Positions 9,557 to 28,568 of a stretch of 64,000 nt of DNA are shown here, one piece after another. The DNA lies in the IMG/VR virus record IMGVR_UViG_3300012039_000001; one strand, 5' to 3'. The stretch's first letter is position 1; the number at the start of each line of letters is the position of its first letter. The DNA is from a virus. The notes beneath the pieces were generated by a model, which was not told where the DNA came from, did no database searches, and was given only the letters and a program-made list of their open reading frames with translations. The position numbers were made by a program, and so were the translations under genes.

Positions 9557-9744
9557 TGGAAAAGGCAAAGTATAAGTATTATGTTGTTGTAAAGGAAGTG
9601 TGGAATAATAACATTATAATAGAAAGCGATAATCCTCTAACGAGAGAAGATTTAATAAAAGAAGTTGAAAAAGACATAGAAGAAGGCGACTTGGCTTACA
9701 GCCATACGCTAGAATCAGATGAATGGGAAACAGGAGAACTATAA
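9556..9744 (+). CDS. hypothetical acidic protein
   Basis: 62-aa ORF bridging the Prs-like and NAMPT-like genes, with start and stop overlaps on both sides. Confidence 0.5.
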   Translation: MEKAKYKYYVVVKEVWNNNIIIESDNPLTREDLIKEVEKDIEEGDLAYSHTLESDEWETGEL

Positions 9745-11198
9745 TGAATCCAATAGAGCTTATTGACGGTTATAAAATAGGTCATAAAGATCAGTACCCA
9801 AAAGGAACTCAAAGGATCTATTCTAATTGGACCCCGCGTTCATCTAGAATCGAAGGACAAAAAGAAGTTGTAACATTTGGTCTTCAATACTTTTTAAAGC
9901 ACTACCTAAAGGATATTTTCCAAACTTTCTTCTTTGATAAGCCAAGACACGAAGTTGAAAGAGAATACGCAGATAGAATTAAAGCCTATCTAAACCTACA
10001 GGAATTTGATACGAGTCACATTGGCGAGCTTCACGAATTAGGTTATTTGCCACTAGAATTTCGTGCTTTGCCAGAAGGAACATTGTGTCCTCTCGGTGTT
10101 CCAATGTTTACTGTTGAAAATACAGATGATAGATTCTTTTGGTTAGTGAACTATATTGAAACACTTATTTCAAATAGTATTTGGATTGGGTCAACTTCTG
10201 CTACATCAGCGTATCGTTTAAGAAAACTATTAAATACAGCGTGTCTAATGACCGGAGGAGATCCTGGGTTTGTCCAGTGGCAAGGGCATGACTTTAGCAT
10301 GAGAGGTATGGCAGGACTAGACGCAGCTATATTGTCTGGAGCGGGACATTTACTTTCATTTACAGGCACGGATACTATTCCGGCTATTGGGTTTGTTGAG
10401 AAATATTATCCAGGAGAAAATGGTTTAATTGGAGGTAGTGTTCCGGCAACAGAACATTCAGTAATGTGTGCCGGAGGAGAAGAAACTGAACTTGAAACAT
10501 TTAATAGACTCTTGGACATTTATCCCACTGGAGTATTATCTGTGGTGAGCGATACATGGGATTTATGGAAAGTAATAACTGGAATTCTTCCACGCCTTGT
10601 AAATAAGATAATGAATAGAGACGGCAAAGTTGTAATTAGGCCTGACAGTGGAGACCCAGTTAAGATTATTTGCGGAAATCCAGATGGAAAATCCGAGGCA
10701 GAAATTAAGGGAGTTGTTCAACTGCTTTGGGAAATCTTTGGAGGAACAATAAGCTCTAATAGCGATGGTTCTTTTAAGCATCTTGACCCTCATATTGGAG
10801 TAATTTACGGAGATGCAATTACTTACGAAAGAGCACAAGCTATTTGTGAAGGATTGAGGCAAAAGGGATTTGCTTCAACTAATATTGTGTTTGGTGTTGG
10901 TAGTTATACTTACCAATATGTAACTAGAGATACTTATGGTTTCGCAATGAAGGCTACTTGGGCTAGAATTAACGATAAAGAGTTCAACCTATTCAAGAAA
11001 CCAGTGACAGATACAGGGGATAAATTCTCCGCTAAAGGACGACTGGCCGTCCTTAAAAATGATGAAGGCAAATTATATTTGGTAAATGAAGCTTCAGAAA
11101 AAGATCAACTGAAATCACAGCTACAATTGGTGTGGAGAAACGGGACTTTTACTAAAGCCCAATCGTTTAAAAATGTGAGGGAGACGTTATGGGGTTAA
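9744..11198 (+). CDS. nadV: nicotinamide phosphoribosyltransferase-family protein (NadV/NAMPT-like; possible Namat)
   Basis: 484 aa. N-terminal 'DGYKIGHKDQYP', then 'HDFSMRGM', 'SVPATEHSVM', 'VIRPDSGDP' and 'VIYGDAIT' are typical of the NAMPT family. Confidence 0.9.
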   Translation: MNPIELIDGYKIGHKDQYPKGTQRIYSNWTPRSSRIEGQKEVVTFGLQYFLKHYLKDIFQTFFFDKPRHEVEREYADRIKAYLNLQEFDTSHIGELHELGYLPLEFRALPEGTLCPLGVPMFTVENTDDRFFWLVNYIETLISNSIWIGSTSATSAYRLRKLLNTACLMTGGDPGFVQWQGHDFSMRGMAGLDAAILSGAGHLLSFTGTDTIPAIGFVEKYYPGENGLIGGSVPATEHSVMCAGGEETELETFNRLLDIYPTGVLSVVSDTWDLWKVITGILPRLVNKIMNRDGKVVIRPDSGDPVKIICGNPDGKSEAEIKGVVQLLWEIFGGTISSNSDGSFKHLDPHIGVIYGDAITYERAQAICEGLRQKGFASTNIVFGVGSYTYQYVTRDTYGFAMKATWARINDKEFNLFKKPVTDTGDKFSAKGRLAVLKNDEGKLYLVNEASEKDQLKSQLQLVWRNGTFTKAQSFKNVRETLWG

Positions 11199-17114: not shown

Positions 17115-17366
17115 ATGAAAATAAGAACAGATAAAGTACACACTTTTGTCTGGCTCTCTAAAAGAGATACGTTTAGATGGGCACATAGGCCGCATAAATC
17201 GTGGCCATGTTCTACTATAAGCGACAAGAGGATTTTCGTAAAAATGAAAAAGAAGGGAGGGGATCTAGTAGATCTGAGAGTAAATGGTAAATATCCAAAA
17301 AGCTTGGATATGGAAGAGTTGAGGTATTGTTTGAAGGATTTGTTGAAAGGAAAAGGAAATGATTGA
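17115..17366 (+). CDS. hypothetical protein
   Basis: 83-aa ORF. Its stop overlaps the start of the Ubl gene. Confidence 0.5.
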   Translation: MKIRTDKVHTFVWLSKRDTFRWAHRPHKSWPCSTISDKRIFVKMKKKGGDLVDLRVNGKYPKSLDMEELRYCLKDLLKGKGND

Positions 17367-17610
17367 CGTAACATTGGTCAGTAATAGTGGTGATGGTCGT
17401 ACTCGTAGTTTGTCTGCAAGAGACGGAGTTCTTCTAGAGGATTTTCTAGAGGTAAACTTCGATGGTGACGTTAGTGACTTTTCTATCTCGGTTCGTCGAG
17501 ATGGAGACAATATGCGAGTTGGAACTGACTTTGAATTGTCAGAGTCACTTGAGGACGGCGATCGCGTATCCCTCGCACCGAAGAAGGTAGAGGGGGCTGT
17601 AACTCTTTAA
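17359..17610 (+). CDS. ubiquitin-like beta-grasp protein (ThiS/MoaD-like Ubl), non-GG C-terminus
   Basis: 83 aa. 'MIDVTLV' first strand, 'LEDFLE' helix region and 'LEDGDRVSLAPKKVEGAVTL' (compare ThiS/MoaD 'L.DGD.V.i.P.v.GG'). Hand count gives ~46% G+C versus ~28% at the start of the next gene. Confidence 0.6.
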   Translation: MIDVTLVSNSGDGRTRSLSARDGVLLEDFLEVNFDGDVSDFSISVRRDGDNMRVGTDFELSESLEDGDRVSLAPKKVEGAVTL

Positions 17611-17631
17611 TTAGTAAGGAGTTATGAAAAT

Positions 17632-17669
17632 GGGGTGGATCTCGAAAGGGGTCCACCCCTATTTTTTTT
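17632..17669 (+). terminator. rho-independent terminator after the Ubl gene
   Basis: 12-bp stem GGGGTGGATCTC / GGGGTCCACCCC (two G-U pairs) closed by a GAAA tetraloop and followed by TATTTTTTTT. Confidence 0.8.
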
Positions 17670-17693
17670 ATCAACTTCTCTCTAGGGGAGTAA

Positions 17694-18896
17694 ATGAGTA
17701 AAAGACAGGAAAATAAAGAAAGATTAATCCAAAAAATAACCGACAAAATTGTACACGATCTTGAATCAAAGCGTTATTACTTACAAAAGACTAACGGAGT
17801 AGAGACACTATATAGGCATTTTGATCTTTATTTTTATAGAGATCAAATAAGAAAAATAGAAAAAGCAGAGTTAAGAAAGTTTCCGTTAAAACTTGCTGCA
17901 AAGAAAATATTTAATGTTATAAAATCTAGACTAGAAGATATTTCAGCTTCAACGTCTAATATACTTAAAGGAATGACAGAAGAAATAAAGGTAGACAAAA
18001 AACAAATTTCAGAAGAAATAAAATGTCTATTTGAATTATTTGATAAAGTAAGATATAACAATGGAATCTTAACCGCTGTAACTAGATCGGATATCATTCT
18101 AGAAGAAGGTGGGGATTATGAAACAAACTTTGGGAAATTCACGATTGTATTTAACTTTGAATCTCCAGACGTAGGTGCCGAAGCCTTGACTCCAAAACCA
18201 TGCCCTGGCGACTCATCAATAACTCACCCACATGTGAAAAATGACTGTATATGCACAGGAGATGGATATGACATTATACATACAGCAAAAGACGAGAACA
18301 GATTCTCAGATATATTCATAATATGTGAACGCATATTACAAACGTACTCCCCGGACAGTCCACATGCTCAAATAGAAAGTTGGCATGAGGAACAATGTAG
18401 ATGTAGTGAGTGTGGAGATTATATAGGTTCTGAAGATGTATATGATTGTTATAATTGTGGGGATTTATTATGCCATAGTTGCTGCATATCATGTTCTGTT
18501 TGCGACCGCTTGTCGTGCGGTAATTGTTATGAGTTTTGTGAGACGTGTGAAAATTCTTATTGCAATAATCACACTTGCAAAGAAGAGTGCAAGAACTGTA
18601 ATAAGGAAATATGTAGAGAAACTCAGGAAAAATGCAACACATGCGATAAAGAATGTTGTGAAGAGTGCCTTCGTATTTGCGATTTATGTCAATCGGTAAA
18701 TTGCACTGATTGTTGTTCTTCTTGTGGGTCATGCGACCAATTAACGTGCGAAAATTGCATAGATGATTGCGTAGAATGCGAGAAGAAATTATGTTCTGAT
18801 TGTGGTAAAGATTGCGATTATTGTGGCGAAAAAGTTTGCGAAAATTGCGAAACCATTTGTTGTCTTTTTAAGGAAAAAGAAAATGCCGGAACCTAG
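17694..18896 (+). CDS. E2 (UBC)-like protein fused to a C-terminal tandem CxxC zinc-knuckle-like array
   Basis: aa 177-192 'THPHVKNDCICTGDGY' resembles the UBC 'HPN...G.ICL' active site (candidate Cys187). aa 235-390 contain ~43 Cys in a 15-aa periodic C-x2-C-x4-C-x2-C pattern. The N-terminal ~230 aa are paralogous to 19816..20532. Confidence 0.65.
   Translation: MSKRQENKERLIQKITDKIVHDLESKRYYLQKTNGVETLYRHFDLYFYRDQIRKIEKAELRKFPLKLAAKKIFNVIKSRLEDISASTSNILKGMTEEIKVDKKQISEEIKCLFELFDKVRYNNGILTAVTRSDIILEEGGDYETNFGKFTIVFNFESPDVGAEALTPKPCPGDSSITHPHVKNDCICTGDGYDIIHTAKDENRFSDIFIICERILQTYSPDSPHAQIESWHEEQCRCSECGDYIGSEDVYDCYNCGDLLCHSCCISCSVCDRLSCGNCYEFCETCENSYCNNHTCKEECKNCNKEICRETQEKCNTCDKECCEECLRICDLCQSVNCTDCCSSCGSCDQLTCENCIDDCVECEKKLCSDCGKDCDYCGEKVCENCETICCLFKEKENAGT
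18447..18863 (+). repeat. degenerate 45-nt (15-codon) tandem coding repeat, ~9 units
   Basis: TGY codons recur in phase: Cys at aa 252/255/260/263, 267/270/275/278, 282/285/290, 299/302/307, 314/317/322/325, 329/332/337/340, 344/347/352/355, 359/362/367/370 and 374/377/382/385. Confidence 0.75.
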
Positions 18897-19812
18897 ATTA
18901 AGATTTACACCATATTCCTGGGCAAAAATTTTATATATGCGAGACGCCGGAGATACAGAAATAGGTGGGTTCGCAATTTTAGATAAAGAAGATCCATTGC
19001 TTGTTATAGATTTTCACTTAATAAAACAAAAATGCTGTTCTGTAACCGTTGAACTAGATGAAGAAGATACTATTAAGTTTGCTGAAGAAATGTCAGACTT
19101 AGGTTATGAACCTTTTCAATATCAAAATTGCTGGATACATACGCATCCTGGCAATTGTGCAAAGCCGAGCATGAATGATGAAGAAAATTTTGAAAAGAAT
19201 TTTAGCCACCCTCACTGGGCTATATTTGTTATAGTGGCAAAAGGTGGAGACAAATACTGTAGAGTTAAATATAATGTAGGGCCAAAGATAGATGTAGACA
19301 TAGATTGTGTAATTGACTATTCCACAGAATTTGATGCGGCAAATTTTGAAGAGTGGCAAAAGGAATACGAAGATAAGGTAACAAAGGAAGAGATAGTAAG
19401 AATATTATCAGATGGAAGTGCTTTTAACAAGTTCCATCCTTGCAGTAACTTAGTTAACGATAACGAAAAAGATTTCAATTACGAGTATGATGAAATAGGA
19501 AGATCTCCAAATAAAGATATTGGAAGACCATTAGACAATGATTATTGGAAATCAATGTATTCTGGATATAAAGACAGAAAAGAAGAAGCTATAGAAATGC
19601 ATTTGCAAGATGGTGCAATATGGTTCTGGATAGACGATGAAGATGATATTTATAAATATGATATATTAACTGAGACGTTCTATAACGATGCGGGAGAAGA
19701 GATTGACGAAGACGATGATCTTGAGAAAAACGTAATAAGACAAGTAAAAAGAAAAGCTAAAGCAGAATTAAAAAATGGCTTGGTAGAAGTTGGCCAAAAG
19801 ACAATGGAGTAA
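18883..19812 (+). CDS. JAB/MPN (JAMM) metallopeptidase with acidic C-terminal extension
   Basis: Exact JAMM motif: E26 (DTEIGGF) ... H86-T-H88-PGNCAKP-S96-MN-D99. ATG 18883 overlaps the upstream gene by 14 nt. 309 aa. Confidence 0.8.
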   Translation: MPEPRLRFTPYSWAKILYMRDAGDTEIGGFAILDKEDPLLVIDFHLIKQKCCSVTVELDEEDTIKFAEEMSDLGYEPFQYQNCWIHTHPGNCAKPSMNDEENFEKNFSHPHWAIFVIVAKGGDKYCRVKYNVGPKIDVDIDCVIDYSTEFDAANFEEWQKEYEDKVTKEEIVRILSDGSAFNKFHPCSNLVNDNEKDFNYEYDEIGRSPNKDIGRPLDNDYWKSMYSGYKDRKEEAIEMHLQDGAIWFWIDDEDDIYKYDILTETFYNDAGEEIDEDDDLEKNVIRQVKRKAKAELKNGLVEVGQKTME

Positions 19813-19815
19813 ACT

Positions 19816-20532
19816 ATGACAAAAGATAAAAATATCGAAGATATAGCAAAAAAAATATTTAAATTAATTAAAAAATACTGCTTTTCAAGAGGAGAATTGA
19901 CAAAGATCCTTGATAAAGCTTCGTATGCTGTGTCTAAAAATTTTACAACAACTTTAGATAAAATTAAAAGCAAAAAAAGTAACGCAGTCAAAGAGTTGAA
20001 TAAAGATATAAATGATGCAAAAAGTTTATTCTTACTATTCTCAAATGAAATGTCTGAATATCTTCGAGATGTAGAAGATATAAGAACTAACTTTAATTTA
20101 GACCATTTTCTAGCAGAGATAAAATATTTATTTTCAATTTTTGATAAAGTTGAAATCAAAGGCACAGAAATAATGGCCTCTACAAAGGAAGATGTAATTC
20201 TTCAATGCGGTGAACAAGATATAAATATAAATCTTGGAAAATTTAGAATATGTTTTGATATAGAAATTTATTATGAGACAAAAGAGTTAAATAAAGCTAT
20301 ATTAGCAAAAGCAATAACTCCAAGATTAGATTATAGTAGAAATTATACACATCCACATGTAAATTGTAACGGAGCAATATGTCTGGGAGATGGATATTCA
20401 TTGATACAGTCAGCTATAAAAGAATATAGAATATCTGACATTTTTCAAATAGTACAATCTATTTTAAAAACATATGGCGAAGATCCAATGGTGTATTTAG
20501 ATGATTTTAGAAAAGGAGATGATGATGAATAA
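19816..20532 (+). CDS. E2 (UBC)-like protein, second paralog (no Cys array)
   Basis: 'THPHVNCNGAICLGDGY...ISDIFQIVQSILKTY' aligns with 17694..18896. Candidate catalytic Cys189. GGAG RBS at 19806-19809. Confidence 0.6.
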   Translation: MTKDKNIEDIAKKIFKLIKKYCFSRGELTKILDKASYAVSKNFTTTLDKIKSKKSNAVKELNKDINDAKSLFLLFSNEMSEYLRDVEDIRTNFNLDHFLAEIKYLFSIFDKVEIKGTEIMASTKEDVILQCGEQDININLGKFRICFDIEIYYETKELNKAILAKAITPRLDYSRNYTHPHVNCNGAICLGDGYSLIQSAIKEYRISDIFQIVQSILKTYGEDPMVYLDDFRKGDDDE

Positions 20533-21184
20533 TAGATATGCAAGACAAAAAGATTTAGTCCCAGGCGATAAAATTAAAGACATACAAATTACAGTAATAG
20601 GAACAGGAGCAATAGGTAGACAGTGTTCAATACAATTAGCAACAATGGGCGCAGTAAATTTAAATATAATAGATTTTGACACCGTAGAAGAAGCAAATTT
20701 AGGAGCACAAGGATTTTATGAACAGGATCTTAAAAAGCAAAAAGTAGAAGCAGTCAAAGAGGTTTGTCAACAAATAAATTCGTCGTGCGTTATAAATGCA
20801 ATAAATGCAAAATTCAATAAATTTATGGACCTTGGAATAAATAATGTAGTCTTTTGTTGCGTAGATTCTATTGATACGCGCAAACAAATATTTGAAGCAA
20901 TAGGCAATCAGGTAAGATTATTTATAGATGGTAGAATGTCTGCCGAATTTGGCAGAGTATTCTGTGTTTTTGATGAAAAATCTAACGATTTCTATAAGAC
21001 GCAACTCTTCCCACAAAGAGAGGCATTTAATGGAAGTTGCACGGCAAAGACAACGATTTACGCAAGTAATATAATTTCGGGGTGGATGGTCTCTCAATTT
21101 GCGAAGTGGTTAAGAGGAATTGAGCTAGATAGCGGAGTAGATATCAATATACTTACAAATGAAATAAAGGCTTATAACAAATGA
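20525..21184 (+). CDS. minimal ThiF/MoeB/E1-like adenylation enzyme
   Basis: 'RYARQ', Rossmann loop 'VIGTGAIGRQ' and 'IDFDTVEEANLGAQ' (D.D.V...NL.RQ pattern). The start is one of three tandem ATGs (20519, 20522, 20525) after AAGGAG, overlapping the upstream stop. Confidence 0.8.
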   Translation: MNNRYARQKDLVPGDKIKDIQITVIGTGAIGRQCSIQLATMGAVNLNIIDFDTVEEANLGAQGFYEQDLKKQKVEAVKEVCQQINSSCVINAINAKFNKFMDLGINNVVFCCVDSIDTRKQIFEAIGNQVRLFIDGRMSAEFGRVFCVFDEKSNDFYKTQLFPQREAFNGSCTAKTTIYASNIISGWMVSQFAKWLRGIELDSGVDINILTNEIKAYNK

Positions 21185-21492
21185 AAAACATCATCATAGT
21201 GTTTCTTTCCTTCTGGTTTTTTACTGACTTAGTGGCGACTCTATCTCAACTTGATAGTCCATATTTTTACGAGCTAAACCCAATAGCTAATTATTTTATA
21301 GTAAATTATGGAGCATTTGGTCTTTGTTGTTTTAAAACCACAATTAGTTTTATTTCTCTATTGATTTTAAATTATTGTTTTCCACGAATAAATGATTTTG
21401 GAAAAAATTGTATATTTTACTCTTGTTTTATTATAATTTCTATTTGGACTATTAGTTGGTGTCACTATATTTATTTGTCGGTGAATCAATGA
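21181..21492 (+). CDS. small multi-pass membrane protein (DUF5658-like)
   Basis: ATGA overlap with the E1 stop. 'FTDLVATLSQL....YELNPIANYF' (D..T...E.NP pattern) plus 3-4 hydrophobic helices. Confidence 0.55.
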   Translation: MKNIIIVFLSFWFFTDLVATLSQLDSPYFYELNPIANYFIVNYGAFGLCCFKTTISFISLLILNYCFPRINDFGKNCIFYSCFIIISIWTISWCHYIYLSVNQ

Positions 21493-22265: not shown

Positions 22266-22706
22266 ATGTCATATATAAGGTGTACTTCAAACCCAGAAGG
22301 TCTATATGTAATACAAGAAGCTAGAGATATTGTTTTTTGGTGGCGTCCCTCTGGGTCAAAAGAGGCAGAAATTTGCACTTACGAAGCTAGATATAATGGC
22401 AAAGCTTTTAAGTCATTTATGAAGAAAATGAAAAAGAGCGATGGCTTTATTTACCATAAAGGGATAAAATATAAAGATATATCTATCAGAGAAGTAACGG
22501 CTCTATATAAAAAGAGAGATAGATATCAAAATAAAATAGTGAATATTCTTGAAGAAGATGAGTTCCCTGATGATTATAATGAAATTTATGATAAATATAC
22601 TACAAAACATCTTGTCTGTCTTCAAATAAAAGATAAACAAATTCTAATGTATGATGTTACCTGGAAATACTTTTATAATAGCTATATAGAACAAAATGAT
22701 TTATAG
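22266..22706 (+). CDS. hypothetical protein
   Basis: 146-aa ORF starting directly after the previous stop. Confidence 0.55.
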   Translation: MSYIRCTSNPEGLYVIQEARDIVFWWRPSGSKEAEICTYEARYNGKAFKSFMKKMKKSDGFIYHKGIKYKDISIREVTALYKKRDRYQNKIVNILEEDEFPDDYNEIYDKYTTKHLVCLQIKDKQILMYDVTWKYFYNSYIEQNDL

Positions 22707-23589
22707 ATTAGAAGAAATAATACCATTAATAGGTAGTGCGAATTCTAAAAGAAAGAAAATAGTTGCCTTCAAAAACGAAAATGGAGAAGCTGTCAATGTA
22801 TTAATGAATCATAAAATAAAATATGCTTCTTTCAAAAAAAGTATATCTTGTGCCTGTTGCGGTAAAAATGGAGAATATTTTCAATTAGAATATAATAAAG
22901 AAGAAAGTTCTCATTTCTTCAATCTTTATGCAGAAGATGGTACATTAATGACGGTAGACCATATAAAGCCAGTAAGTATGGGCGGGCCAAAGAAGTCTAT
23001 GTCAAATGTGCAGACGCTATGTAAAGATTGTAATGAACTAAAGGACGACAAGCTATTATCAATAGAAAAACTAAGACAAGCAAAAAAGGAGTATGATAAA
23101 CTTAAAATACAAAATCCTCATATAACAAAAACAATCTTTCATAAAAAATTCAACAATATATCTCTTAGCAAGGAGCCAAAATTGATTAAAAGACTTAATG
23201 GTACTTTGAGAATGTCTAGGGTTTCCTCTACTATAGAAGGTGATTACATCAATATAGTTGTTACAGATAAAAATAGTAAACTAATAATATTAGAGGTAAA
23301 AATACCTGAAAAGGAATGTATGAATTTTCTGTCAAGTATGATTACAGAAATTCAGATGGATTATTTTCAAAATACCGATATTGGAAAGAGAAGAGAAATA
23401 AAGATTATTGAAGTAGCTATTCCTTCAAGTCCAACCGAAGAAGAGCTAGAAGATATCTTATCTGGTATAGAAAAAACTGGGTGGAAAGCTAGTATTTATA
23501 ATTTAAAAAATGCTAAAGCGGTTAAATACGTTGAGCATCATGCCATAAAAAATATAGTGGTAGAAAGGTGGGTAGACAATGAAAGTTGA
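22696..23589 (+). CDS. HNH endonuclease
   Basis: 'CACCGKNG...MTVDHIKPVSMGGPKKSMSNVQTLCKDCNELKDD' is a canonical HNH (C..C...DH...N...C..CN) motif. Confidence 0.7.
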   Translation: MIYRLEEIIPLIGSANSKRKKIVAFKNENGEAVNVLMNHKIKYASFKKSISCACCGKNGEYFQLEYNKEESSHFFNLYAEDGTLMTVDHIKPVSMGGPKKSMSNVQTLCKDCNELKDDKLLSIEKLRQAKKEYDKLKIQNPHITKTIFHKKFNNISLSKEPKLIKRLNGTLRMSRVSSTIEGDYINIVVTDKNSKLIILEVKIPEKECMNFLSSMITEIQMDYFQNTDIGKRREIKIIEVAIPSSPTEEELEDILSGIEKTGWKASIYNLKNAKAVKYVEHHAIKNIVVERWVDNES

Positions 23590-23855: not shown

Positions 23856-24062
23856 ATGGAAAAGAATAAGACTGTAATTCATACATACCAGGAGCCATAC
23901 GTTGACGAAGATGGCAAGATTGTGGTTAAATTTGATAAAAGAATATCCAGAGCTATTATAAACCAGTTAATAAGAACGCCGGATTTTGTTAAAAGAAATA
24001 AGTCTTTATTCCGATTAGGGAAAGATCTAGAGAGATTGACAAACCAACTATATGGAAAATAA
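23856..24062 (+). CDS. hypothetical protein
   Basis: 68-aa ORF, tightly packed. Confidence 0.5.
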   Translation: MEKNKTVIHTYQEPYVDEDGKIVVKFDKRISRAIINQLIRTPDFVKRNKSLFRLGKDLERLTNQLYGK

Positions 24063-24063
24063 T

Positions 24064-25590
24064 ATGAATCAGTTTCAAACAGATTTAGAGAACTATTTGT
24101 TAAGCGGACACATATTATTGCATGTAAATACATATGAAAAAGAAAGAGGCATTGAACAGATAGCTGAAGTGTGCAAAAATAATAGCAAAAAAATATATGT
24201 TTGGAATATAGCTAATGGTTGGGGAAATTCAAATAGCGAAGGCTCCCCAGAAGAAGCTATTAAAGAAGTAGTATCAATGGAGAAAGATTCAGTTTTTATC
24301 TTGAATAATTTCCATTACTATTTAAATCAACAAACATACAACAAGTTCGATATAGTGATCTCTTTAATAGAATGTATAAAAGGTTCTTTATATAAAGATA
24401 GTAAAACAATCATATTTTTATCTGGAGAATTTCAAATACCAGAAGTTTTAAGAAATGATGTCACAACTATAAATTTCCCATTACCGGACGAAGAACATAT
24501 AAAAGAAAGTATAAATAATGTTTGTAAGGGAATTACTCGTGAAGGTGAGCCTTTTAATCCAAATATGGATTTATTACCAGAAATAATAAATGCTTGTAGA
24601 GGCATGTGTTCTCATCAAATATCTGATAGAACGGCTCTGGCTATAAGGAAAAATAAGGATTTTAATAAAGAGGCGGTTAAGACCCTGTATCGGGAAAAAT
24701 CAAACGTAATAAAACTATCTGGTCTATTAAATTATATAGAACCAAAAAGTGGAGGACTAGAAAACATAGGTGGGTATGAGCCATTAAAAAGGCATATATT
24801 GCTAGATAAGCCCTGTTTTAGCAAAGAGGCTATAGAGTTTGGTATAAGTCCGCCAAAAGGATTATTGCTGGCAGGAATACCTGGTTGTGGAAAAACAGTT
24901 TTTTGCGAAGCAATAGCATCTGAATTTGGCTTAGCTCTATTGGAATTAAGTGTAGAAAATTTAATGGGTGGTATAGTCGGTGAAAGCGAGAAGAACACTA
25001 GAGAAGCTATAAAATTAATAGAAGCAATATCTCCAGTTGTTGTAAAAATTGACGAAGTAGAAAAGGCGTTTGGTGGAAAGGGGGATTTAGATGGTGGTAC
25101 GAGTAAAAGACTACTTGGCATGTTTTTAAAATGGTTAAATGATAGAAAATCACAAGTCTATGTTGTAATGACAGCCAATGATGTATCATCTCTTCCTCCA
25201 GAATTCACCAGAAAGGGAAGAATAGACGAGGTGTACGGTATGGGTCTCCCGAATAATGAAGAAAGAAAACAAATATTTAATATACATATATTAAATAAGA
25301 AAAGAGATCCAATCAATTTTGACTTAGACAAACTTTCTTTGTCGTGCGAAGGGTATACTGGGGCAGATATACAAACATCAATAGAAATGGGGCTTAAAAT
25401 AGCTTTTAGGTCAAAGCAAGAACTAAATGATAATTTCATATTGACTGGTTTAGATAGTATCAAGCCTCTTTCTAAAACACAACCTGAAAAAATAGAAGAA
25501 CTCAAGAAATGGATAGAAACTAGGGCGAAATTTGCTAATTCCCAAGAGACTACCATAAAAACACCATCAAGGAGAAATGTAAAAGTATGA
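24064..25590 (+). CDS. AAA+ ATPase (Ycf46-like architecture)
   Basis: Walker A 'GIPGCGKT', Walker B 'VVKIDEVEKAF' and 'MTANDVSSLPPEFTRKGRIDE' (sensor/Arg finger region). ~250-aa N-terminal domain followed by a classic-clade AAA module. ATG 24052 is an alternative start. Confidence 0.85.
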   Translation: MNQFQTDLENYLLSGHILLHVNTYEKERGIEQIAEVCKNNSKKIYVWNIANGWGNSNSEGSPEEAIKEVVSMEKDSVFILNNFHYYLNQQTYNKFDIVISLIECIKGSLYKDSKTIIFLSGEFQIPEVLRNDVTTINFPLPDEEHIKESINNVCKGITREGEPFNPNMDLLPEIINACRGMCSHQISDRTALAIRKNKDFNKEAVKTLYREKSNVIKLSGLLNYIEPKSGGLENIGGYEPLKRHILLDKPCFSKEAIEFGISPPKGLLLAGIPGCGKTVFCEAIASEFGLALLELSVENLMGGIVGESEKNTREAIKLIEAISPVVVKIDEVEKAFGGKGDLDGGTSKRLLGMFLKWLNDRKSQVYVVMTANDVSSLPPEFTRKGRIDEVYGMGLPNNEERKQIFNIHILNKKRDPINFDLDKLSLSCEGYTGADIQTSIEMGLKIAFRSKQELNDNFILTGLDSIKPLSKTQPEKIEELKKWIETRAKFANSQETTIKTPSRRNVKV

Positions 25591-25841
25591 GCAATAAAAA
25601 CAGAATTTTATTAAATGAAATTGATTTCTTTTTTGGCACACATTACAACATATCAAAATATCTGTCTAGATTCACAAGCTGGTGGAATAATATAGAATTT
25701 AACGATAAAGATACTATTTATATCACCCCAAAACGTGGCAAAAGAGACGAGCTTAATTTGCTTGGTCATGCTCTTGGGGCAGATGAAGTTGATTGGGTAA
25801 TTAGAGATAATAAAGAAGTATTAAGGGTTTGGTGGGATTAA
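25587..25841 (+). CDS. hypothetical protein
   Basis: 84-aa ORF with ATGA overlap to the AAA+ gene. Confidence 0.5.
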   Translation: MSNKNRILLNEIDFFFGTHYNISKYLSRFTSWWNNIEFNDKDTIYITPKRGKRDELNLLGHALGADEVDWVIRDNKEVLRVWWD

Positions 25842-25853
25842 AAGGATAAGATA

Positions 25854-26783
25854 ATGGAAAAAACAAATCTATTCGATTTAGGTTATTTAATGTCTTTAAG
25901 AGTAGGCTCATGGTCTGGTCGCCGAATGGTTTCAAAAGAAGATATGGAAGCTATGGGGGTAAATGTAGAAAACATTCCAGAAAATTTAGTGAATTATGGT
26001 CGTAAGTTATTAGTACCAAAAGAGACGCTAGATGTTTTACGTCGCATTGAACAACGTTCGAGAAAGTTTTTAAATAACTGGTCGAAAGATTTCGGCATTA
26101 CAAACACCCATTTCGTACCGGTAAAAAACTTAGAGAATATAGAAAATGAATTAGTGAAGATGAGAAAAGAGTTTTATTATGAAGTAGATGGATTCATAAA
26201 TAAGTTCGAATCTCTTAAAGAAGAGATGGAAAAACAATATCCAGAATTTTGGAATAAATGCCTTAAGGATTTATATCCTTCTCCAGAATCTCTGAGAGAA
26301 AGATTTCATTTTAACTGGTCTCTGTTCAAAATAGGAAGTTTATCGTATACAGATACGGAAAAAGAAATTGAGCTAAGACAAAAACTTCAAGAAGAAGTAA
26401 CTGTATTCGTTGGAGAGTATGTAGAAGGAATGCGGTCAGAAGTTCTTAAGTTCTGCGAACTAATAACTTGTAGAATTAATGAAACACCATTCGGAGATGA
26501 AGAAGAACCAAAGAAATTAACAAAAAAGACCCTTGGCGCTTTTAAGAAATGTATAGAAAAATTTAGGGTAATGAATATCTTTGAGGACACACAGATAGAA
26601 AAGTCTTTATTAGAATTCAAGCAACAATTCTTGGATATTGACATAGACTCAAAAGCCTGTCAAACAGAAGGATTCCAGAATTCAGTCAAATCAGCAATCG
26701 GAAAGATAACTAAGCAAGCTGCTATTAGTGGACAGGAATATGAATCATATGTAAATGAAGTAAAAAGGAAAATTGTTATATGA
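25854..26783 (+). CDS. hypothetical protein (DUF3150-like pattern)
   Basis: 'LRVGSWSGRRMVSKEDM...NLVNYGRKLLVPKETL' resembles the DUF3150 N-terminus from memory. 309 aa. Family assignment is tentative. Confidence 0.5.
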   Translation: MEKTNLFDLGYLMSLRVGSWSGRRMVSKEDMEAMGVNVENIPENLVNYGRKLLVPKETLDVLRRIEQRSRKFLNNWSKDFGITNTHFVPVKNLENIENELVKMRKEFYYEVDGFINKFESLKEEMEKQYPEFWNKCLKDLYPSPESLRERFHFNWSLFKIGSLSYTDTEKEIELRQKLQEEVTVFVGEYVEGMRSEVLKFCELITCRINETPFGDEEEPKKLTKKTLGAFKKCIEKFRVMNIFEDTQIEKSLLEFKQQFLDIDIDSKACQTEGFQNSVKSAIGKITKQAAISGQEYESYVNEVKRKIVI

Positions 26784-27049
26784 CAAATTCTTTATGGATT
26801 TATTTTAACGGAGATTATAGCTCAAATAGAGATAAAATAGAAAATTTTGTACAAAAATATTTTCCAAAAGTAGAGACAGAAGGTTCTGGTTGTGGATTCG
26901 GAAGCAACGATATCAGTTTCAAAGATTTAGATAAAAAATTAGCTTTATCAATAATAAATAAGATACGAAAAAGTAAAAGATTAATGAAGATAATAACTTC
27001 TTTTGATATATTTGATCATAATAGAAAAGAGTTTATTTATGAAAAGTAA
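26780..27049 (+). CDS. hypothetical protein
   Basis: 89-aa ORF overlapping the previous stop. Confidence 0.5.
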   Translation: MTNSLWIYFNGDYSSNRDKIENFVQKYFPKVETEGSGCGFGSNDISFKDLDKKLALSIINKIRKSKRLMKIITSFDIFDHNRKEFIYEK

Positions 27050-27129
27050 AATACCAAATAAGTTTCAATGATGGAGCCAGTTAGAGGTTATTTTGGTGCG
27101 GCTTTATTCGATCCAAATTGGAGATAAGA

Positions 27130-27558
27130 ATGAGTATGTATTGTTTAATAAAAACAGAATTTAGATCACAAGAAGCTTTATTATGCGCCCTAGTAGAAAC
27201 AAAAAATAGAAATGGTAAATTTTGGTCTCCTGGCCAGATAAAAATCTGTGAAGAACCACAACCTTTGGTTGGATACGAAGGTTCTTTTCGTAAAGAAAAG
27301 GCGCATATTATAATCCCAAGAACATTTGTTGGTGGTTCGGCAAATGATTTAGGCTTCATTCGCAATGAAGCTGGGGTTTATGAAGCTATTATATCAGAAT
27401 ACGATAAAAGTTTTTATAATGAGAGTTGGCTTTGCCAACTCAAACAAAACTATAGCTATCACGCTATAAAACTTCAGCAAGAACAAAAAGGAAGAAAAGT
27501 TACTAGAGAACGTTTAGACAATGGTAAACAAAGAGTAACTGTTTCAAACATTAGGTAA
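27130..27558 (+). CDS. DUF1257 (Ycf35-like) protein
   Basis: 'MSMYCLIKTEFRSQEALLCAL...VGYEG...AHIII...DLGF...YEAIISEYD' follows the DUF1257 pattern. GGAG at 27120-27123 precedes ATG 27130. Confidence 0.65.
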   Translation: MSMYCLIKTEFRSQEALLCALVETKNRNGKFWSPGQIKICEEPQPLVGYEGSFRKEKAHIIIPRTFVGGSANDLGFIRNEAGVYEAIISEYDKSFYNESWLCQLKQNYSYHAIKLQQEQKGRKVTRERLDNGKQRVTVSNIR

Positions 27559-27565
27559 TATAACT

Positions 27566-27814
27566 ATGATACTTGAAATTCAAGAAGATGGTAATGTAAA
27601 GTGTCTATATACCGATGAGATTGATCTATATAAAATTGGAGCAATAACAAATATCGAAAGAGCAAGTCACATAGTATTTTACGAAGATGACCAGTGCTGG
27701 GTTGTTGTTGACGCTGATACTCACGAAAAAGTATATAATAACAAGGTGAGAGAAAAATGCGTCATATGGGAAGTTGAGAATTTCGGGTGCGGTGGAAAAT
27801 ATTATAGGGGATAA
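27566..27814 (+). CDS. hypothetical protein
   Basis: 82-aa ORF, tightly packed. Confidence 0.5.
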   Translation: MILEIQEDGNVKCLYTDEIDLYKIGAITNIERASHIVFYEDDQCWVVVDADTHEKVYNNKVREKCVIWEVENFGCGGKYYRG

Positions 27815-27816
27815 AT

Positions 27817-28098
27817 ATGCCTTGTGGATATAATGAAGATCATACAAGTGATTATATAAGAGAAATAGATACTCTTACAAGATTATTGTGTTATGTATGT
27901 GGTAGATTTAAATCTCAGGAACAATTTAGAAAAGCTTTATCAGAAAATAAAGAATTAAAAGAGTGGTGGAAAAATCATCAAAAAGAAGATGAAGAAAGAG
28001 TCAAAAAGGAAGCTGAAGACAAAAAAATATCTTTTATAAGAGAAAAGGCGCTGAAAAAACTAACAGTCAAAGAAAGAAAAGCTTTATTAGGAAAATAA
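27817..28098 (+). CDS. hypothetical protein
   Basis: 93-aa ORF with a Lys/Glu-rich C-terminal helix. Confidence 0.5.
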   Translation: MPCGYNEDHTSDYIREIDTLTRLLCYVCGRFKSQEQFRKALSENKELKEWWKNHQKEDEERVKKEAEDKKISFIREKALKKLTVKERKALLGK

Positions 28099-28099
28099 T

Positions 28100-28375
28100 G
28101 TGGCAAAAAATAAAATATATGGAGTATTGAAAAATATTCATGGCGTTAGTCAGATTAAAGAAGCATTTTGGGACGAAGAATTAAAATGCTATAGTAGTAA
28201 AGATGGTCGTATTTTCGTAGAAGAAACTGGTCCACATTACCATTATGGTGGGATGCAAGCGTTTTGTTCTGAATCAATTCACGATGTTGAATTGTGGCAT
28301 GACACTAAAAGATGTACGATGAGGGTAGTAGAAAAATGGTTTGGTTTGAGAAAGGGTTTTCCAAATGTCTGCTAG
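28100..28375 (+). CDS. hypothetical protein
   Basis: GTG start at 28100, with no in-frame ATG near the 5' end. 91 aa. Confidence 0.45.
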   Translation: MAKNKIYGVLKNIHGVSQIKEAFWDEELKCYSSKDGRIFVEETGPHYHYGGMQAFCSESIHDVELWHDTKRCTMRVVEKWFGLRKGFPNVC

Positions 28376-28568
28376 AGATAAAAAAGTAATTATAAATATT
28401 GACGAATCTGGTAACGCCTCTATTGAAGGTCACGGGTTTGAAGGAGTTGAGTGTGAGAAGTTAATAAAAGAAATCAATTCGGCTTTAGGCGTTGAAGTGT
28501 CAACGCAAAAGAAGAGAGAATACAACCAAACGGTTTCTGTTAACAGAAACCAAAAAATTGGGAGATAA
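28365..28568 (+). CDS. DUF2997 protein
   Basis: 'KKVIINIDESGNASIEGHGFEGVECEKLIKEINSALG' matches the DUF2997 pattern (I.v.i..dG.v...v.G..G..C......le..lG). Confidence 0.65.
   Translation: MSARDKKVIINIDESGNASIEGHGFEGVECEKLIKEINSALGVEVSTQKKREYNQTVSVNRNQKIGR

What the first reader, a model, noticed from the sequence alone, without database searches (positions are those of the whole stretch)
17359..21492. Virus-encoded complete ubiquitin-like conjugation cassette: Ubl / E2+Cys-array / JAB / second E2 / E1 / membrane protein
Seen in the sequence: six consecutive + strand genes; the last five, downstream of the terminator at 17632..17669, are close-packed or overlapping. (i) 17359..17610 is an 83-aa ThiS/MoaD-like beta-grasp candidate ('MIDVTLV', 'LEDGDRVSLAP'). 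(ii) 17694..18896 and (iv) 19816..20532 share a domain with 'THPHV-x3-5-IC(T/L)GDGY...SDIF...IL(Q/K)TY'. That mirrors the UBC/E2 active-site 'HPN(I/V)...G.ICL', giving candidate catalytic Cys187 and Cys189. (iii) 18883..19812 carries an exact JAMM motif (E26 ... H86-x-H88-x7-S96-x2-D99). (v) 20525..21184 is a minimal ThiF/E1 adenylation domain ('RYARQ', 'VIGTGAIGRQ', 'IDFDTVEEANLGAQ'). (vi) 21181..21492 is a small multi-pass membrane protein whose start overlaps the E1 stop. Established: Ubl+E1+E2+JAB operons are known as host or mobile-element systems. Examples are Bil/ISG15-like antiphage systems reported to tag phage tail proteins, PRTRC cassettes, and CBASS Cap2/Cap3. Inference: here the whole cascade sits in a co-directional viral gene array next to tRNAs, RNR, ThyX and homing endonucleases. 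No CD-NTase or recognisable effector is nearby, and it carries two E2s and a unique Cys array. It may therefore be a viral protein-tagging system, for example marking host defence or other host proteins. It could also intercept or reverse host Bil-type conjugation. The window also encodes ClpP and an AAA+ ATPase. I know of no characterised phage system with this architecture.
Basis: partly seen in the sequence, partly recalled or inferred. Interest (0 to 1): 0.95.

Follow-up and report, generated by a model that had tools for sequence, protein, structure and literature searches.

The report
Phage-borne ubiquitin-like protein-tagging cassette
A large uncultivated phage carries a compact gene set for ubiquitin-like protein tagging that belongs to a big, uncharacterised family shared by many uncultivated phages and mobile elements of Planctomycetota bacteria.

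Summary
All six co-directional genes exist and overlap or abut.

- E1 is a solid ThiF-type adenylation domain.
- JAB has an intact JAMM motif, conserved 96-99% in 101 homologs.
- The small first protein belongs to a family whose members hit Pfam ThiS. It ends in an invariant Gly-Ala followed by a variable tail.
- The two "E2s" are paralogs in a large family (1,451 cluster representatives) with invariant H-P-x...C. They match canonical E2s only weakly by sequence, and a confident model found no significant PDB fold match.

The cassette is not unique. Ubl-E2-JAB-E1 in this order occurs in 22 IMG/VR viral contigs and in more than 120 genome loci, 112 of them labelled Planctomycetota, in mobile-element contexts. 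The Cys array is a feature of the whole family. Particular to this phage are the second E2, a local duplicate without the array, and, shared with its closest relatives, the small membrane protein.

A Cdc48-like AAA ATPase plus DUF3150/DUF1257/DUF2997 block is recurrently linked to the cassette.

It is not Bil, Bub, CBASS or PRTRC. Targets and biological role are unknown. Verdict: a new variant of a known kind.

The parts
17359..17610 (+). Ubl precursor (83 aa), ThiS/MoaD-like. The conserved C-terminus is ...K-V-E-G79-A80, followed by a 3-residue tail (VTL).
   Evidence: The ORF is. Of 33 family members, 28 hit Pfam ThiS (best E=4.6e-6), and others hit Ub-Mut7C, TGS, ThiS-like and SAMP2. Weak PDB profile hits are to MoaD and ThiS. 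G79 and A80 are 98% conserved, followed by tails of mostly 1-17 residues. The window protein's own AF2 model is poor (pLDDT 48.7).
17632..17669 (+). Intrinsic-terminator-like hairpin plus T-run between the Ubl gene and E2a.
   Evidence: 12-bp stem, 8 G-C pairs, 4-nt loop, then TATTTTTTTT.
17694..18896 (+). E2a (400 aa). It has an N-terminal helical region, a UBC-like domain (aa ~107-232, nt 18012-18389; H178-P-H, C187), and a C-terminal CxxC zinc-finger array (aa 233-400, nt 18390-18893; 43 Cys, 19 CxxC).
   Evidence: The array gives weak PDB profile hits to the TFIIH p44 C4C4 RING-like finger and to FYVE, B-box and RING domains (E=0.003-0.5).
18883..19812 (+). JAB/JAMM metallopeptidase (309 aa; E26, H86, H88, S96, D99) with a C-terminal extension.
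   Evidence: Pfam Prok-JAB E=2e-4. Nine PADLOC JAB models hit, best E=5.7e-6. NCBIfam Cap3 E=0.0029. The motif is 96-99% conserved in 101 homologs. A weak PDB match to an archaeal Rpn11-like protein is in register.
19816..20532 (+). E2b (238 aa): a second UBC-like protein (domain aa ~100-232, nt 20113-20511; H179-P-H, C189) with no Cys array. It is a lineage-specific duplicate of E2a.
   Evidence: 43.9% identity to E2a against 36% or less to any other homolog. The AF2 model has pLDDT 93.9. hhalign against canonical E2s gives P=4e-4. No second E2 occurs in 122 + 22 related loci.
20525..21184 (+). Minimal single-domain ThiF/MoeB-type E1 (219 aa). It has GxGxxGR, D50/D52, K73 and a conserved C172, and lacks the CxxC zinc motifs.
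   Evidence: Pfam ThiF E=2.1e-27. PDB hits are MoeB, MccB and ThiF. C172 aligns with ThiF C184, using a ThiF sequence recalled from memory.
21181..21492 (+). Small multi-pass membrane protein (103 aa, DUF5658). Its start overlaps the E1 stop. It is an accessory gene, not part of the core.
   Evidence: Pfam DUF5658 E=5e-6, above the cutoff. Homologs follow E1 only in the closest viral relatives L132, L134 and L135. None occurs in the 122 loci.
24052..25590 (+). Cdc48/p97/VAT-like AAA+ ATPase (512 aa), recurrently linked to the cassette.
   Evidence: Pfam AAA E=2.8e-26. PDB hits to Cdc48/p97/VAT at E~3e-53. It is 41.5% identical over 518 aa to the gene just upstream of the cassette in Planctomycetota loci. 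A homolog lies in the flank of 8 of 22 viral loci.
25854..26783 (+). DUF3150 protein, the partner of the AAA gene in the linked block.
   Evidence: Pfam E=3.7e-23. Homologs are next to AAA in bacterial and viral loci.
27118..28568 (+). The rest of the linked block: DUF1257 (27118-27558), a conserved 82-aa ORF (27566-27814), further small ORFs, and DUF2997 (28365-28568).
   Evidence: Pfam hits are.

Best explanation
This is a functional ubiquitin-like protein-conjugation module carried by a large phage. It belongs to a distinct, previously uncharacterised family of Ubl-E2-JAB-E1 operons that circulate among phages and integrated or mobile elements, mainly of Planctomycetota.

Proposed mechanism:
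1. The 83-aa ThiS/MoaD-like Ubl is made as a precursor. It is probably expressed in excess, because a terminator follows its gene.
2. The JAB peptidase trims the variable tail after the invariant Gly79-Ala80.
3. The minimal ThiF-type E1, probably a homodimer, adenylates the exposed C-terminus. It may form a covalent intermediate on the conserved crossover-loop Cys172.
4. The Ubl passes to the invariant Cys of the UBC-like E2 (C187 in E2a).
5. The fused multi-zinc-finger CxxC array acts as a built-in E3-like or substrate-binding module that directs transfer to target lysines.
6. JAB can also reverse conjugation.

This phage has also duplicated the E2. The array-less E2b (C189) probably gives a second specificity or a chain-building or priming activity. 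A small membrane protein is translationally coupled to E1.

What is shown: the gene set, its order, its conservation, the catalytic residues and the family relationships. What is inferred: every biochemical step and the role of the zinc array.

Biological role (inference): tagging of host, competitor or element proteins during infection or establishment, possibly together with the recurrently linked Cdc48-like AAA+ block.
For: The ORFs are real and packed like an operon.

E1 is solid: Pfam ThiF E=2.1e-27, with PDB hits to MoeB and ThiF.

The JAMM, E1 nucleotide-binding and Cys172 residues and the Ubl ...EG-A end are 90-100% conserved across 71-101 homologs.

Ubl family members hit Pfam ThiS in 28 of 33 cases.

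The E2 family is large, with 1,451 representatives at E<=1e-3, and has invariant G, H, P, C and G. Some members carry a literal HPN. All 29 weak PDB hits for E2b are UbcH5-type E2s at HPN...C. hhalign against verified canonical E2s gives P=4e-4 over 78 columns, matching HPH to HPN, Cys to Cys and TYNPDSPYV to PNPDDPL. The AF2 model is confident and has a helix, beta-meander, loop, two-helix order.

The order Ubl-E2-JAB-E1 occurs in 69 of 122 loci found through the E2 motif alone, and all other patterns fit truncation at a locus edge. Every one of the 22 viral loci found through JAB carries the cassette in the same order; two are cut at a locus edge.

Synteny survives down to 29-59% identity in the phage relative L008.

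The cassette GC of 32.9% equals the phage background of 32.3%, against a median of 55.6% in the related loci.

Precedents for Ubl pre-processing by JAB exist in Caldiarchaeum (PMC5654768) and Bil (PMC10557695).
Against: Foldseek against the PDB found no significant match for the confident E2 model. The best full-length hits are Knl1 RWD domains at E~0.8-2.7 and TMq 0.36-0.42.

Pfam UQ_con is far below its gathering score (E=0.028). Only 1 of 80 family members hits it at E<0.01. The domain profile finds nothing in the PDB by sequence.

The window Ubl has no direct profile hit and its model is poor.

The JAB profile finds no PDB JAB by sequence.

The E1 lacks any E2-binding UFD or CYS domain, so how the E2 docks is unknown.

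No target, conjugate or activity has been observed. The RING-like reading of the Cys array rests on weak hits from a Cys-biased profile.
Confidence: 0.7

Rival explanations
1. The biochemistry is the same, but the role is defence. The cassette would be a Bil-like anti-phage or superinfection-exclusion system carried as cargo by phages and mobile elements. It would tag structural proteins of competing phages.
For: Bil has the same four components in the same order, bilA-bilB-bilC-bilD (PMC10557695). [quoted passage not shown] The bacterial copies sit in mobile-element contexts with DUF932, DUF2958 and integrases. Uncharacterised Ubl/E1/E2/RING/DUB operons are generally predicted to be antiviral.
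Against: No PADLOC model hits the E2 or the Ubl. The E1 is a 219-aa single domain, unlike BilD's tandem IAD-AAD-CYS. The cassette is a fixed, GC-ameliorated part of large, lytic-looking phage genomes. It lies among auxiliary and likely counter-defence genes: NAMPT with PRPP synthetase, RNA ligases and tRNAs. No CapH/CapP or BrxR-type regulators were seen nearby.
Confidence: 0.25
2. This is not a conjugation system but a ThiS/ThiF-type sulfur-carrier or peptide or cofactor biosynthesis pathway. JAB would only mature the carrier, and the Cys-rich protein would serve as a redox or metal partner.
For: The Ubl is closest to ThiS/MoaD. The E1 is closest to MoeB, ThiF and MccB. E2 fold membership is not confirmed by Foldseek. 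JAB plus ThiS/MoaD plus E1 sulfur-assimilation clusters exist (PMC1779556).
Against: No rhodanese, cysteine desulfurase, sulfate-assimilation or biosynthetic enzymes occur in the window neighbourhood or in any conserved flank family. The E1 has no rhodanese domain. The invariant HP[HN]-x(n)-C plus NPxxP-like signature aligns in register with the E2 active site. The setting is mobile elements and phages.
Confidence: 0.06
3. The contig is a bacterial (Planctomycetota) mobile element or defence island rather than a virus.
For: 112 of the 120 genome loci with the cassette are labelled Planctomycetota, and some lie on Mb-scale contigs and complete chromosomes. No virion structural gene lies within the 64-kb window.
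Against: The window has 4 tRNAs, all large ORFs on one strand, ~32% GC, HNH homing endonucleases, ThyX, RNR, T4-type RNA ligases and NAMPT with PRPP synthetase. One gene has relatives only in jumbo phages of 199-462 kb. The identical cassette lies on a 168.7-kb contig. The closest relatives of the cassette are on IMG/VR viral contigs of 56-181 kb with the same downstream genes.
Confidence: 0.07

Closest known systems
Bil (BilABCD, bacterial ISG15-like; Iyer 2006 class 6d)
   Same: It has four separate genes for Ubl, E2, a JAB DUB and E1 in the same order. JAB pre-processes the Ubl C-terminus. It is carried on mobile DNA (PMC10557695; PMC1779556).
   Different: BilD is a large tandem IAD-AAD-CYS E1 that binds zinc, whereas this E1 is a 219-aa single domain without CxxC motifs. 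Class 6d E2s lack the classical His, whereas this family has an invariant H-P-(H/N). There is no zinc-finger array in Bil. No PADLOC hit was found for the E2 or the Ubl. This Ubl is a single ThiS-like domain ending in Gly-Ala plus a tail.
Caldiarchaeum/Asgard-type Ub-E1-E2-small RING-Rpn11 operons, and the bacterial RING-containing Ubl operons of Burroughs, Iyer & Aravind 2011 (the 2011 paper was not readable here and is cited from memory and through)
   Same: The pro-Ubl has a C-terminal extension removed by a JAMM peptidase. The E2 has a classical HPN-type active site. A zinc-finger (RING-type) component is present. The JAB's only meaningful weak PDB hit is the Caldiarchaeum Rpn11 homolog.
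   Different: Here the zinc-finger module is fused to the E2 and is a long, variable CxxC repeat of 13-72 Cys, not a small separate RING. The Ubl ends in G-A rather than G-G and is ThiS-like rather than ubiquitin-like. The E1 is minimal, with no UFD. The hosts are phages and Planctomycetota elements.
Type II CBASS Cap2/Cap3
   Same: It combines E1, E2 and JAB chemistry. The best PADLOC and NCBIfam hits for the window's E1 and JAB are Cap2-type E1-E2 and Cap3 models.
   Different: Cap2 is an E2-E1 fusion and the conjugated moiety is the CD-NTase. No CD-NTase, effector or fusion is present here, and all scores are far below the family cutoffs.
Bub (6E/DUF6527) systems
   Same: It has a minimal homodimeric-type E1 and JAB processing of a Ubl precursor (PMC11601596).
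   Different: Bub uses Ubl-E2 and JAB-E1 fusions or E2-E1 fusions, a catalytic Ser in the E2, an E1 without a catalytic Cys, and the BubE serine protease. None of these features is present here.
PRTRC cassettes (ParB-related, ThiF-related) of conjugative elements
   Same: It is a mobile-element-borne ThiF plus JAB-like plus E2-like plus small Ubl-like set. The neighbours are similar (DUF932, DUF2958), as far as I recall.
   Different: NCBIfam PRTRC_ThiF scores 38.4 bits against a cutoff of 144.75. No other PRTRC model hits any cassette protein. No ParB was seen.
crAss-like (Kahnovirus cr85_1) and Flavobacterium phage FpV4 'hypothetical / metalloprotease / ThiF' triad
   Same: It is phage-encoded. 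Its ThiF is 29-31% identical to the window E1. The neighbouring protein has a JAMM motif, and the protein upstream carries YMHSH...C.G...GGPY, resembling THPHV...CxGDG...SPYV. The E2 model hits such phage proteins in BFVD at E=7e-5 to 1e-2.
   Different: There is no detectable sequence homology for the E2-like and JAB proteins. There is no obvious small Ubl and no Cys array. The triad sits in the replication module.

Membership tests
E1-like adenylation domain (Pfam ThiF, PF00899) | Rossmann-type ThiF domain scoring above the Pfam gathering score, with the GxGxxG nucleotide loop and conserved Arg and Asp. | tested here: met
   96.3 bits against a cutoff of 28.1. G26/G28/G31/R32, D50/D52, K73 and R137 are 100% conserved in 71 sequences.
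E1-like adenylation domain (Pfam ThiF, PF00899) | Crossover-loop cysteine able to form a covalent intermediate. | tested here: inconclusive
   C172 is 97% conserved.
JAB/JAMM metallopeptidase (Pfam Prok-JAB, PF14464) | E...HxH-x7-S-x2-D metal-binding and catalytic motif. | tested here: met
   E26, H86, H88, S96 and D99 are present and 96-99% conserved in 101 homologs.
JAB/JAMM metallopeptidase (Pfam Prok-JAB, PF14464) | Profile score at or above the curated cutoff. | tested here: not met
   21.6 bits against a cutoff of 25, E=2e-4. Support comes from nine PADLOC JAB models (best E=5.7e-6) and NCBIfam Cap3 at E=0.0029. The family profile finds no PDB JAB.
UBC/E2 superfamily (Pfam UQ_con and the UBC-like clan) | HPN-type motif with the catalytic Cys about 10 residues downstream. 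| tested here: met
   H and P are invariant, the third position is H (some members N), and the Cys is invariant 9-10 residues after the His. hhalign places these on the HPN and Cys85 of canonical E2s.
UBC/E2 superfamily (Pfam UQ_con and the UBC-like clan) | Significant profile or fold similarity to known E2s. | tested here: inconclusive
   UQ_con E=0.028. 1 of 80 members hits it at E=0.0018. hhalign gives Prob 35%, P=4e-4. Foldseek against the PDB gives nothing with E<0.7, and the best full-length hits are RWD domains at TMq 0.36-0.42.
ThiS/MoaD-like beta-grasp Ubl (Pfam ThiS, PF02597) | Beta-grasp domain recognisable by profile. | tested here: inconclusive
   The window protein has no hit and its model has pLDDT 48.7. 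However, 28 of 33 homologs hit ThiS (best E=4.6e-6) and other Ubl families, and the profile gives weak hits to MoaD and ThiS in the PDB.
ThiS/MoaD-like beta-grasp Ubl (Pfam ThiS, PF02597) | Conserved small residue (Gly) at or near the C-terminus for adenylation. | tested here: met
   G79 and A80 are 98% conserved, followed by variable tails. 15 sequences end directly in ...EGA.
Bil (BilABCD) | Gene order Ubl-E2-JAB-E1. | tested here: met
   The Bil order is taken from PMC10557695.
Bil (BilABCD) | [quoted passage not shown] | tested here: not met
   The E1 is 219 aa with a single ThiF domain covering residues 15-199.
Type II CBASS (Cap2/Cap3) | E2-E1 fusion protein and a CD-NTase in the operon. 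| tested here: not met
   E1 and E2 are separate genes. No CD-NTase was found among the window or flank proteins that were scanned. NCBIfam Cap3 scores 17.9 bits against a cutoff of 200.
Bub (6E/DUF6527) | DUF6527/BubE protease, and Ubl-E2 or E2-E1 fusions with a catalytic Ser in the E2. | tested here: not met
   No DUF6527 hit. The genes are separate. The E2 nucleophile position holds an invariant Cys. The definition comes from PMC11601596.
PRTRC system | NCBIfam PRTRC ThiF and partner proteins A-F above their cutoffs. | tested here: not met
   TIGR03736 scores 38.4 bits against 144.75. No other PRTRC model is listed for any of the six proteins.
Caldiarchaeum-type Ub/E1/E2/srfp/Rpn11 system | A ubiquitin with a GG end, an E1 with a C-terminal Ubl/UFD domain, and a separate small RING protein. 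| tested here: not met
   The Ubl ends in G-A and is ThiS-like. The E1 has no extra domain. The zinc fingers are fused to the E2. Pre-processing logic is shared.

The most novel reading that the evidence does not exclude
Phages and mobile elements of Planctomycetota encode their own ubiquitin-like tagging pathway, and it works together with the recurrently linked Cdc48/p97-like AAA+ unfoldase block (AAA, DUF3150, DUF1257, DUF2997). The E2's zinc-finger array would select host proteins such as defence factors, the Ubl would mark them, and the unfoldase would extract or unfold them, possibly for proteolysis. This would be a viral, bacterial-world analogue of the ubiquitin-Cdc48 axis. In this phage the duplicated E2 would widen or split the substrate range.
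Probability: 0.15. Interest if true: 0.9.

Novelty: new variant of a known kind. Interest (0 to 1): 0.7.

Why it matters
All characterised prokaryotic Ubl-conjugation systems (Bil, Bub, type II CBASS) are host defences. This finding shows a complete cascade as a stable part of many large phage genomes.

It defines a large, unannotated protein family. The E2-like domain fused to a zinc-finger array has 1,451 cluster representatives and no Pfam model. The family offers a possible natural E2-E3 fusion, a minimal E1, and a recurrent link to a Cdc48-like ATPase.

If the cascade is active, it would give phages a programmable way to modify proteins. It would also add a data point on how E2-E3 and ubiquitin-unfoldase partnerships arose.

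A cultured isolate, Planctomicrobium sp. SH527, carries the core operon, so the system can be tested experimentally.

Tried and rejected
- The nucleotide search of the cassette against GenBank phages found no match.
- Word-indexed protein searches with E2b and with the E2a N-terminus found only the proteins themselves. Only the exhaustive HMMER profile search worked.
- Pairwise BLAST to the crAss and FpV4 neighbours linked only the E1s, and the family HMMs did not detect their E2-like or JAB proteins.
- The Ubl AF2 model built from 4 sequences was unusable.
- The full-length E2 profile against the PDB was dominated by coiled-coil and zinc-finger hits, and the domain-only profile found nothing.
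- Foldseek against the PDB was not significant.
A fixed-gap back-translated motif worked.
- The JAB profile against the PDB found nothing.
- JAB, E2b and DUF3150 are absent from deposited phages, and JAB is absent from plasmids.
- hmmalign of ThiF to the E1 HMM did not cover the C-terminal half. A half-sequence alignment did.
- The key Aravind-lab papers on prokaryotic RING fingers (PMC5938088, PMC5881585) are not held in the library.
- A functional link to ClpP was considered. It lies 33 kb away and has no conserved association, so I did not adopt it.
- Rfam found only tRNAs.

Full report
**1. The observation**

The six + strand ORFs are present exactly as described: 17359-17610 (83 aa), 17694-18896 (400 aa), 18883-19812 (309 aa), 19816-20532 (238 aa), 20525-21184 (219 aa) and 21181-21492 (103 aa). 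The last five overlap or abut: a 14-nt overlap, a 3-nt gap, an 8-nt overlap and a 4-nt overlap.

A strong terminator-like hairpin lies between the first gene and the rest. It has a 12-bp stem with 8 G-C pairs, followed by TATTTTTTTT, at 17632-17669. The region has 7 such sites against 1.8 expected from shuffles.

The - strand ORFs in the region are short overlapping ORFs with no hits, and Rfam finds only the four tRNAs in the window.

**2. What each gene is**

- **E1.** This is solid. Pfam ThiF scores 96 bits, E=2.1e-27. Its nearest solved relatives are MoeB, MccB and ThiF. It is a minimal single domain. In 71 homologs the nucleotide-binding residues are 100% conserved and Cys172 is 97% conserved. 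Cys172 aligns with ThiF Cys184 in a half-sequence alignment.
- **JAB.** Pfam Prok-JAB gives E=2e-4, just below the gathering score. Nine PADLOC JAB models hit, the best at E=5.7e-6. The JAMM residues are 96-99% conserved in 101 homologs. The family profile does not reach any PDB JAB by sequence. The single-sequence search gives a weak, in-register match to the Caldiarchaeum Rpn11-like protein.
- **Ubl.** The window protein has no profile hit, and its 4-sequence AlphaFold model is unusable at pLDDT 48.7. But it has clear homologs, and 28 of 33 members of that family hit Pfam ThiS (best E=4.6e-6). Others hit Ub-Mut7C, TGS, ThiS-like, SAMP2 and RnfH. The profile gives weak hits to MoaD and ThiS in the PDB. 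The C-terminus is P-x-K-(I/V)-E-G79-A80, with G79 and A80 98% conserved, followed by a variable tail of mostly 1-17 residues. That is the signature of a precursor that needs trimming.
- **E2a and E2b.** They are paralogs: 40% identity over 135 aa, E=1e-23. Word-indexed searches found nothing. An exhaustive HMMER search with a two-sequence profile found 1,451 cluster representatives at E<=1e-3 and 365 at E<=1e-10. The family has invariant G, H, P, C and G. The third position of the H-P-x motif is usually H and sometimes N.
- **E2 evidence in favour.** Pfam UQ_con gives E=0.028 at the active-site region. All 29 weak PDB hits are UbcH5-type E2s aligned at HPN...C. hhalign against four canonical E2s, whose sequences were verified, gives P=4e-4 over 78 columns. 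It matches HPH to HPN, Cys to Cys, and TYNPDSPYV to PNPDDPL.
- **E2 fold evidence, mixed.** A high-confidence model (pLDDT 93.9, pTM 0.88) has the order helix, beta-meander, loop, two helices. However, Foldseek against the PDB gives nothing significant. The best full-length matches are Knl1 RWD domains at TMq 0.36-0.42. To my knowledge RWD belongs to the UBC-like superfold. I therefore treat the protein as a divergent UBC-like E2. That is probable but not proven.
- **Cys array.** In E2a it has 43 Cys and 19 CxxC motifs. It is a feature of the whole family, with a median of 22 Cys and a range of 0-72, and 5 of 80 members lack it. Its profile weakly matches the TFIIH p44 C4C4 RING-like finger and FYVE, B-box and RING domains (E=0.003-0.5).
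- **Membrane protein.** It matches DUF5658 at E=5e-6, above the cutoff.

**3. The cassette is a conserved, widespread system**

I back-translated the invariant motif T-H-P-H-V-x5-C-x-G-D-G and scanned the public collections.

Of the 120 genome loci, 112 are labelled as Planctomycetota lineages. These include complete chromosomes and one cultured isolate, Planctomicrobium sp. SH527, and some genomes carry 2-3 copies.

These loci were selected through the E2 motif alone. Even so, 107 encode a close JAB homolog, 81 an E1 (E down to 1e-74) and 101 a Ubl. The order Ubl-E2-JAB-E1 occurs in 69 loci, and every other pattern fits truncation at a locus edge.

A second scan, with a JAB alignment, found 22 IMG/VR viral contigs of 10-208 kb and GC 0.33-0.61. 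All carry the cassette in the same order; two are cut at a locus edge. A diverged phage relative, L008, keeps the synteny at 59% (Ubl), 29% (E2) and 40% (JAB) identity, with an extra gene inserted between E2 and JAB.

None of these 144 loci has a second E2. E2a and E2b are each other's closest relatives, at 43.9% identity against 36% or less to any other homolog. E2b is therefore a duplication specific to this phage lineage.

The membrane protein follows E1 only in the three closest viral relatives and is absent from the 122 loci.

The family's E2 and JAB are absent from 50,697 deposited phage records, and JAB is absent from 72,556 plasmids. No paper in the searched library describes this family or a phage-borne cassette of this type.

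**4. Virus or bacterial island?**

The window has about 32% GC, all large ORFs on one strand and 4 tRNAs. It encodes RNR, ThyX, HNH endonucleases, T4-type RNA ligases with a phosphatase, NAMPT with PRPP synthetase, a dCMP deaminase and ClpP. One gene has relatives only in jumbo phages of 199-462 kb.

The identical cassette lies on a 168,682-bp ENA contig and on four shorter contigs. From the coordinates, the window itself comes from another assembly of the same or a near-identical phage.

The cassette GC of 32.9% equals the window GC of 32.3%, whereas the related loci have a median of 55.6%. The window's E1 is sister to that of a viral contig. No structural gene lies in these 64 kb, so a viral origin is very likely but not formally proven.

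The bacterial copies sit in two mutually exclusive, co-directional contexts:

| Context | Upstream genes | Loci with at least 4.5 kb upstream (of 45) |
|---|---|---|
| Type A | TM protein, DUF1257-like, AAA, DUF3150-like | 17 |
| Type B | f394, DUF2958, tandem f148 copies | 18 |
| Neither | - | 10 |

DUF932 and phage-type integrases are nearby in some loci. This points to integrated or mobile elements.

**5. A recurrent partner block**

The window's AAA ATPase (24052-25590) is Cdc48/p97/VAT-like, with PDB hits at E~3e-53. It is followed by DUF3150, DUF1257, a conserved 82-aa ORF and DUF2997.

Homologs lie directly upstream of the cassette in the type-A bacterial loci; the AAA protein is 41.5% identical over 518 aa. 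Homologs also lie within the 8-kb flank of 8 of the 22 viral loci, downstream in seven and upstream in one.

The linkage persists although the order is inverted, which suggests a functional connection. Shared ancestry of the carrier elements is not excluded.

**6. How it most likely works**

- **Shown:** the gene set, its order, the conservation of catalytic residues and the family relationships.
- **Inferred:** JAB trims the Ubl tail. The E1 adenylates the exposed end and may use Cys172. The Ubl moves to the E2 Cys. The fused zinc-finger array acts as a built-in E3-like or substrate-binding module. JAB can also reverse conjugation. The terminator after the Ubl gene would let the substrate protein be made in excess over the enzymes.

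Precedents for JAB pre-processing exist in Caldiarchaeum (PMC5654768), Bil (PMC10557695) and Bub (PMC11601596).

The biological role is open. The cassette may tag host or competitor proteins during infection, as counter-defence or takeover, or it may be a Bil-like exclusion system carried as cargo. The neighbouring genes in the phage are mostly auxiliary and, from my own knowledge of NAD-salvage and tRNA-repair modules, plausibly counter-defence. This is guilt by association only.

**7. Comparison with known systems**

- **Bil.** The gene order is the same. But the E1 is not BilD-like, the E2 keeps the classical His that class 6d E2s lack, and no PADLOC model hits the E2 or the Ubl.
- **CBASS type II.** It is not a member: there is no E2-E1 fusion and no CD-NTase.
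- **Bub.** It is not a member: there is no DUF6527, no fusions, and the E2 has a Cys rather than a Ser.
- **PRTRC.** It is not a member: TIGR03736 scores 38 bits against a cutoff of 145.
- **Closest in logic.** It is closest to the Ub/E1/E2/RING/JAMM operons of Caldiarchaeum and to the RING-containing bacterial operons noted by the Aravind laboratory. It differs in having the zinc fingers fused to the E2 as a long repeat, a ThiS-like Ubl ending in Gly-Ala, and a minimal E1.

**8. Verdict**

This is a real, conserved and probably active system.

It is a new variant of a known kind. Its interest comes from being a fixed part of many large phage genomes, from defining a large unannotated E2-zinc-finger family, from the possible E2-E3 fusion and the Cdc48-like partner, and from the lineage-specific second E2. 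Interest 0.7.

Noticed in passing
L001 (crAss-like phage cr85_1, MT774390.1) 1996-5711; L002 (Flavobacterium phage FpV4, KT876724.1) 1667-5678: Both phages have a triad. It comprises a 371/420-aa hypothetical protein with YMHSH...C.G...GGPY, a 'metalloprotease' with a JAMM motif (HSHN...FFSGxD), and a ThiF 29-31% identical to the window E1. The window E2 model hits about 10 uncharacterised phage proteins in BFVD (E=7e-5 to 1e-2), including a 420-aa one. The gene upstream of the triad ends in a C-terminal Gly in both phages. This may be a distant, unrecognised E2-like/JAB/E1 module in Crassvirales and Fipvunavirus replication regions.
   Followed up: partly
window 24052-28568: A Cdc48/p97-like AAA ATPase, DUF3150, DUF1257, a conserved 82-aa ORF and DUF2997 form a block. 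The block is recurrently linked to the Ubl cassette in bacterial loci (upstream) and viral loci (mostly downstream). DUF3150 has no match in deposited phages.
   Followed up: partly
window 8627-11198: Adjacent PRPP-synthetase-like (phrog_619) and NAMPT genes form an NAD-salvage pair of the kind that, from memory, has been reported in phages as a counter to NAD-depleting defences.
   Followed up: no
window 38573-42495 and 48750-49931: Two RNA-ligase genes (phrog_968 and Pfam RNA_lig_T4_1) and a NinI-like phosphoesterase suggest a tRNA-repair set. A beta-helix protein lies at 40014-41270.
   Followed up: no
window 42910-44325: A BrxL-like Lon-related ATPase (BrxL_ATPase E=7.9e-103 plus BrxL_N) is encoded in a phage context.
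   Followed up: no
window 58005-58685: A 226-aa protein has a doubled CXXCH motif (Paired_CXXCH_1 E=9.6e-11; cytochrome c7/c3-like). A multihaem-cytochrome-like gene is unusual in a phage.
   Followed up: no
window 54448-55062: ClpP-family protease (E=7.7e-33). It lies 33 kb from the cassette and shows no conserved association with it.
   Followed up: partly
L008 2858-3511; L010/L132 between Ubl-E2 and E2-JAB and at 4137-4823: Phage copies of the cassette are interrupted by extra genes. L008 has a 217-aa gene between E2 and JAB. In L010/L132 an HNH endonuclease 43% identical to window 50759-51352 follows JAB. The window itself has an HNH gene at 22696-23589 between the cassette and the AAA block.
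   Followed up: partly
Planctomycetota loci of type B (e.g. L028, L069, L081, L085): One to four tandem copies of a ~148-aa protein of unknown function lie immediately upstream of the Ubl gene, preceded by DUF2958 and a ~394-aa protein. Small conserved genes f88, f218 and f101 follow E1.
   Followed up: partly
window 31712-32245: A DUF6915 protein (E=1.2e-37) has homologs (50% identity over 74 aa) in two cassette-bearing bacterial loci.
   Followed up: no
L047 and L090 (Phycisphaerae MAG24 contigs): These are two cassette-bearing contigs of 19-20 kb with assembly coverage of about 1,170-1,400x and GC of 0.35-0.40. They may be phage or plasmid contigs binned into a MAG.
   Followed up: no
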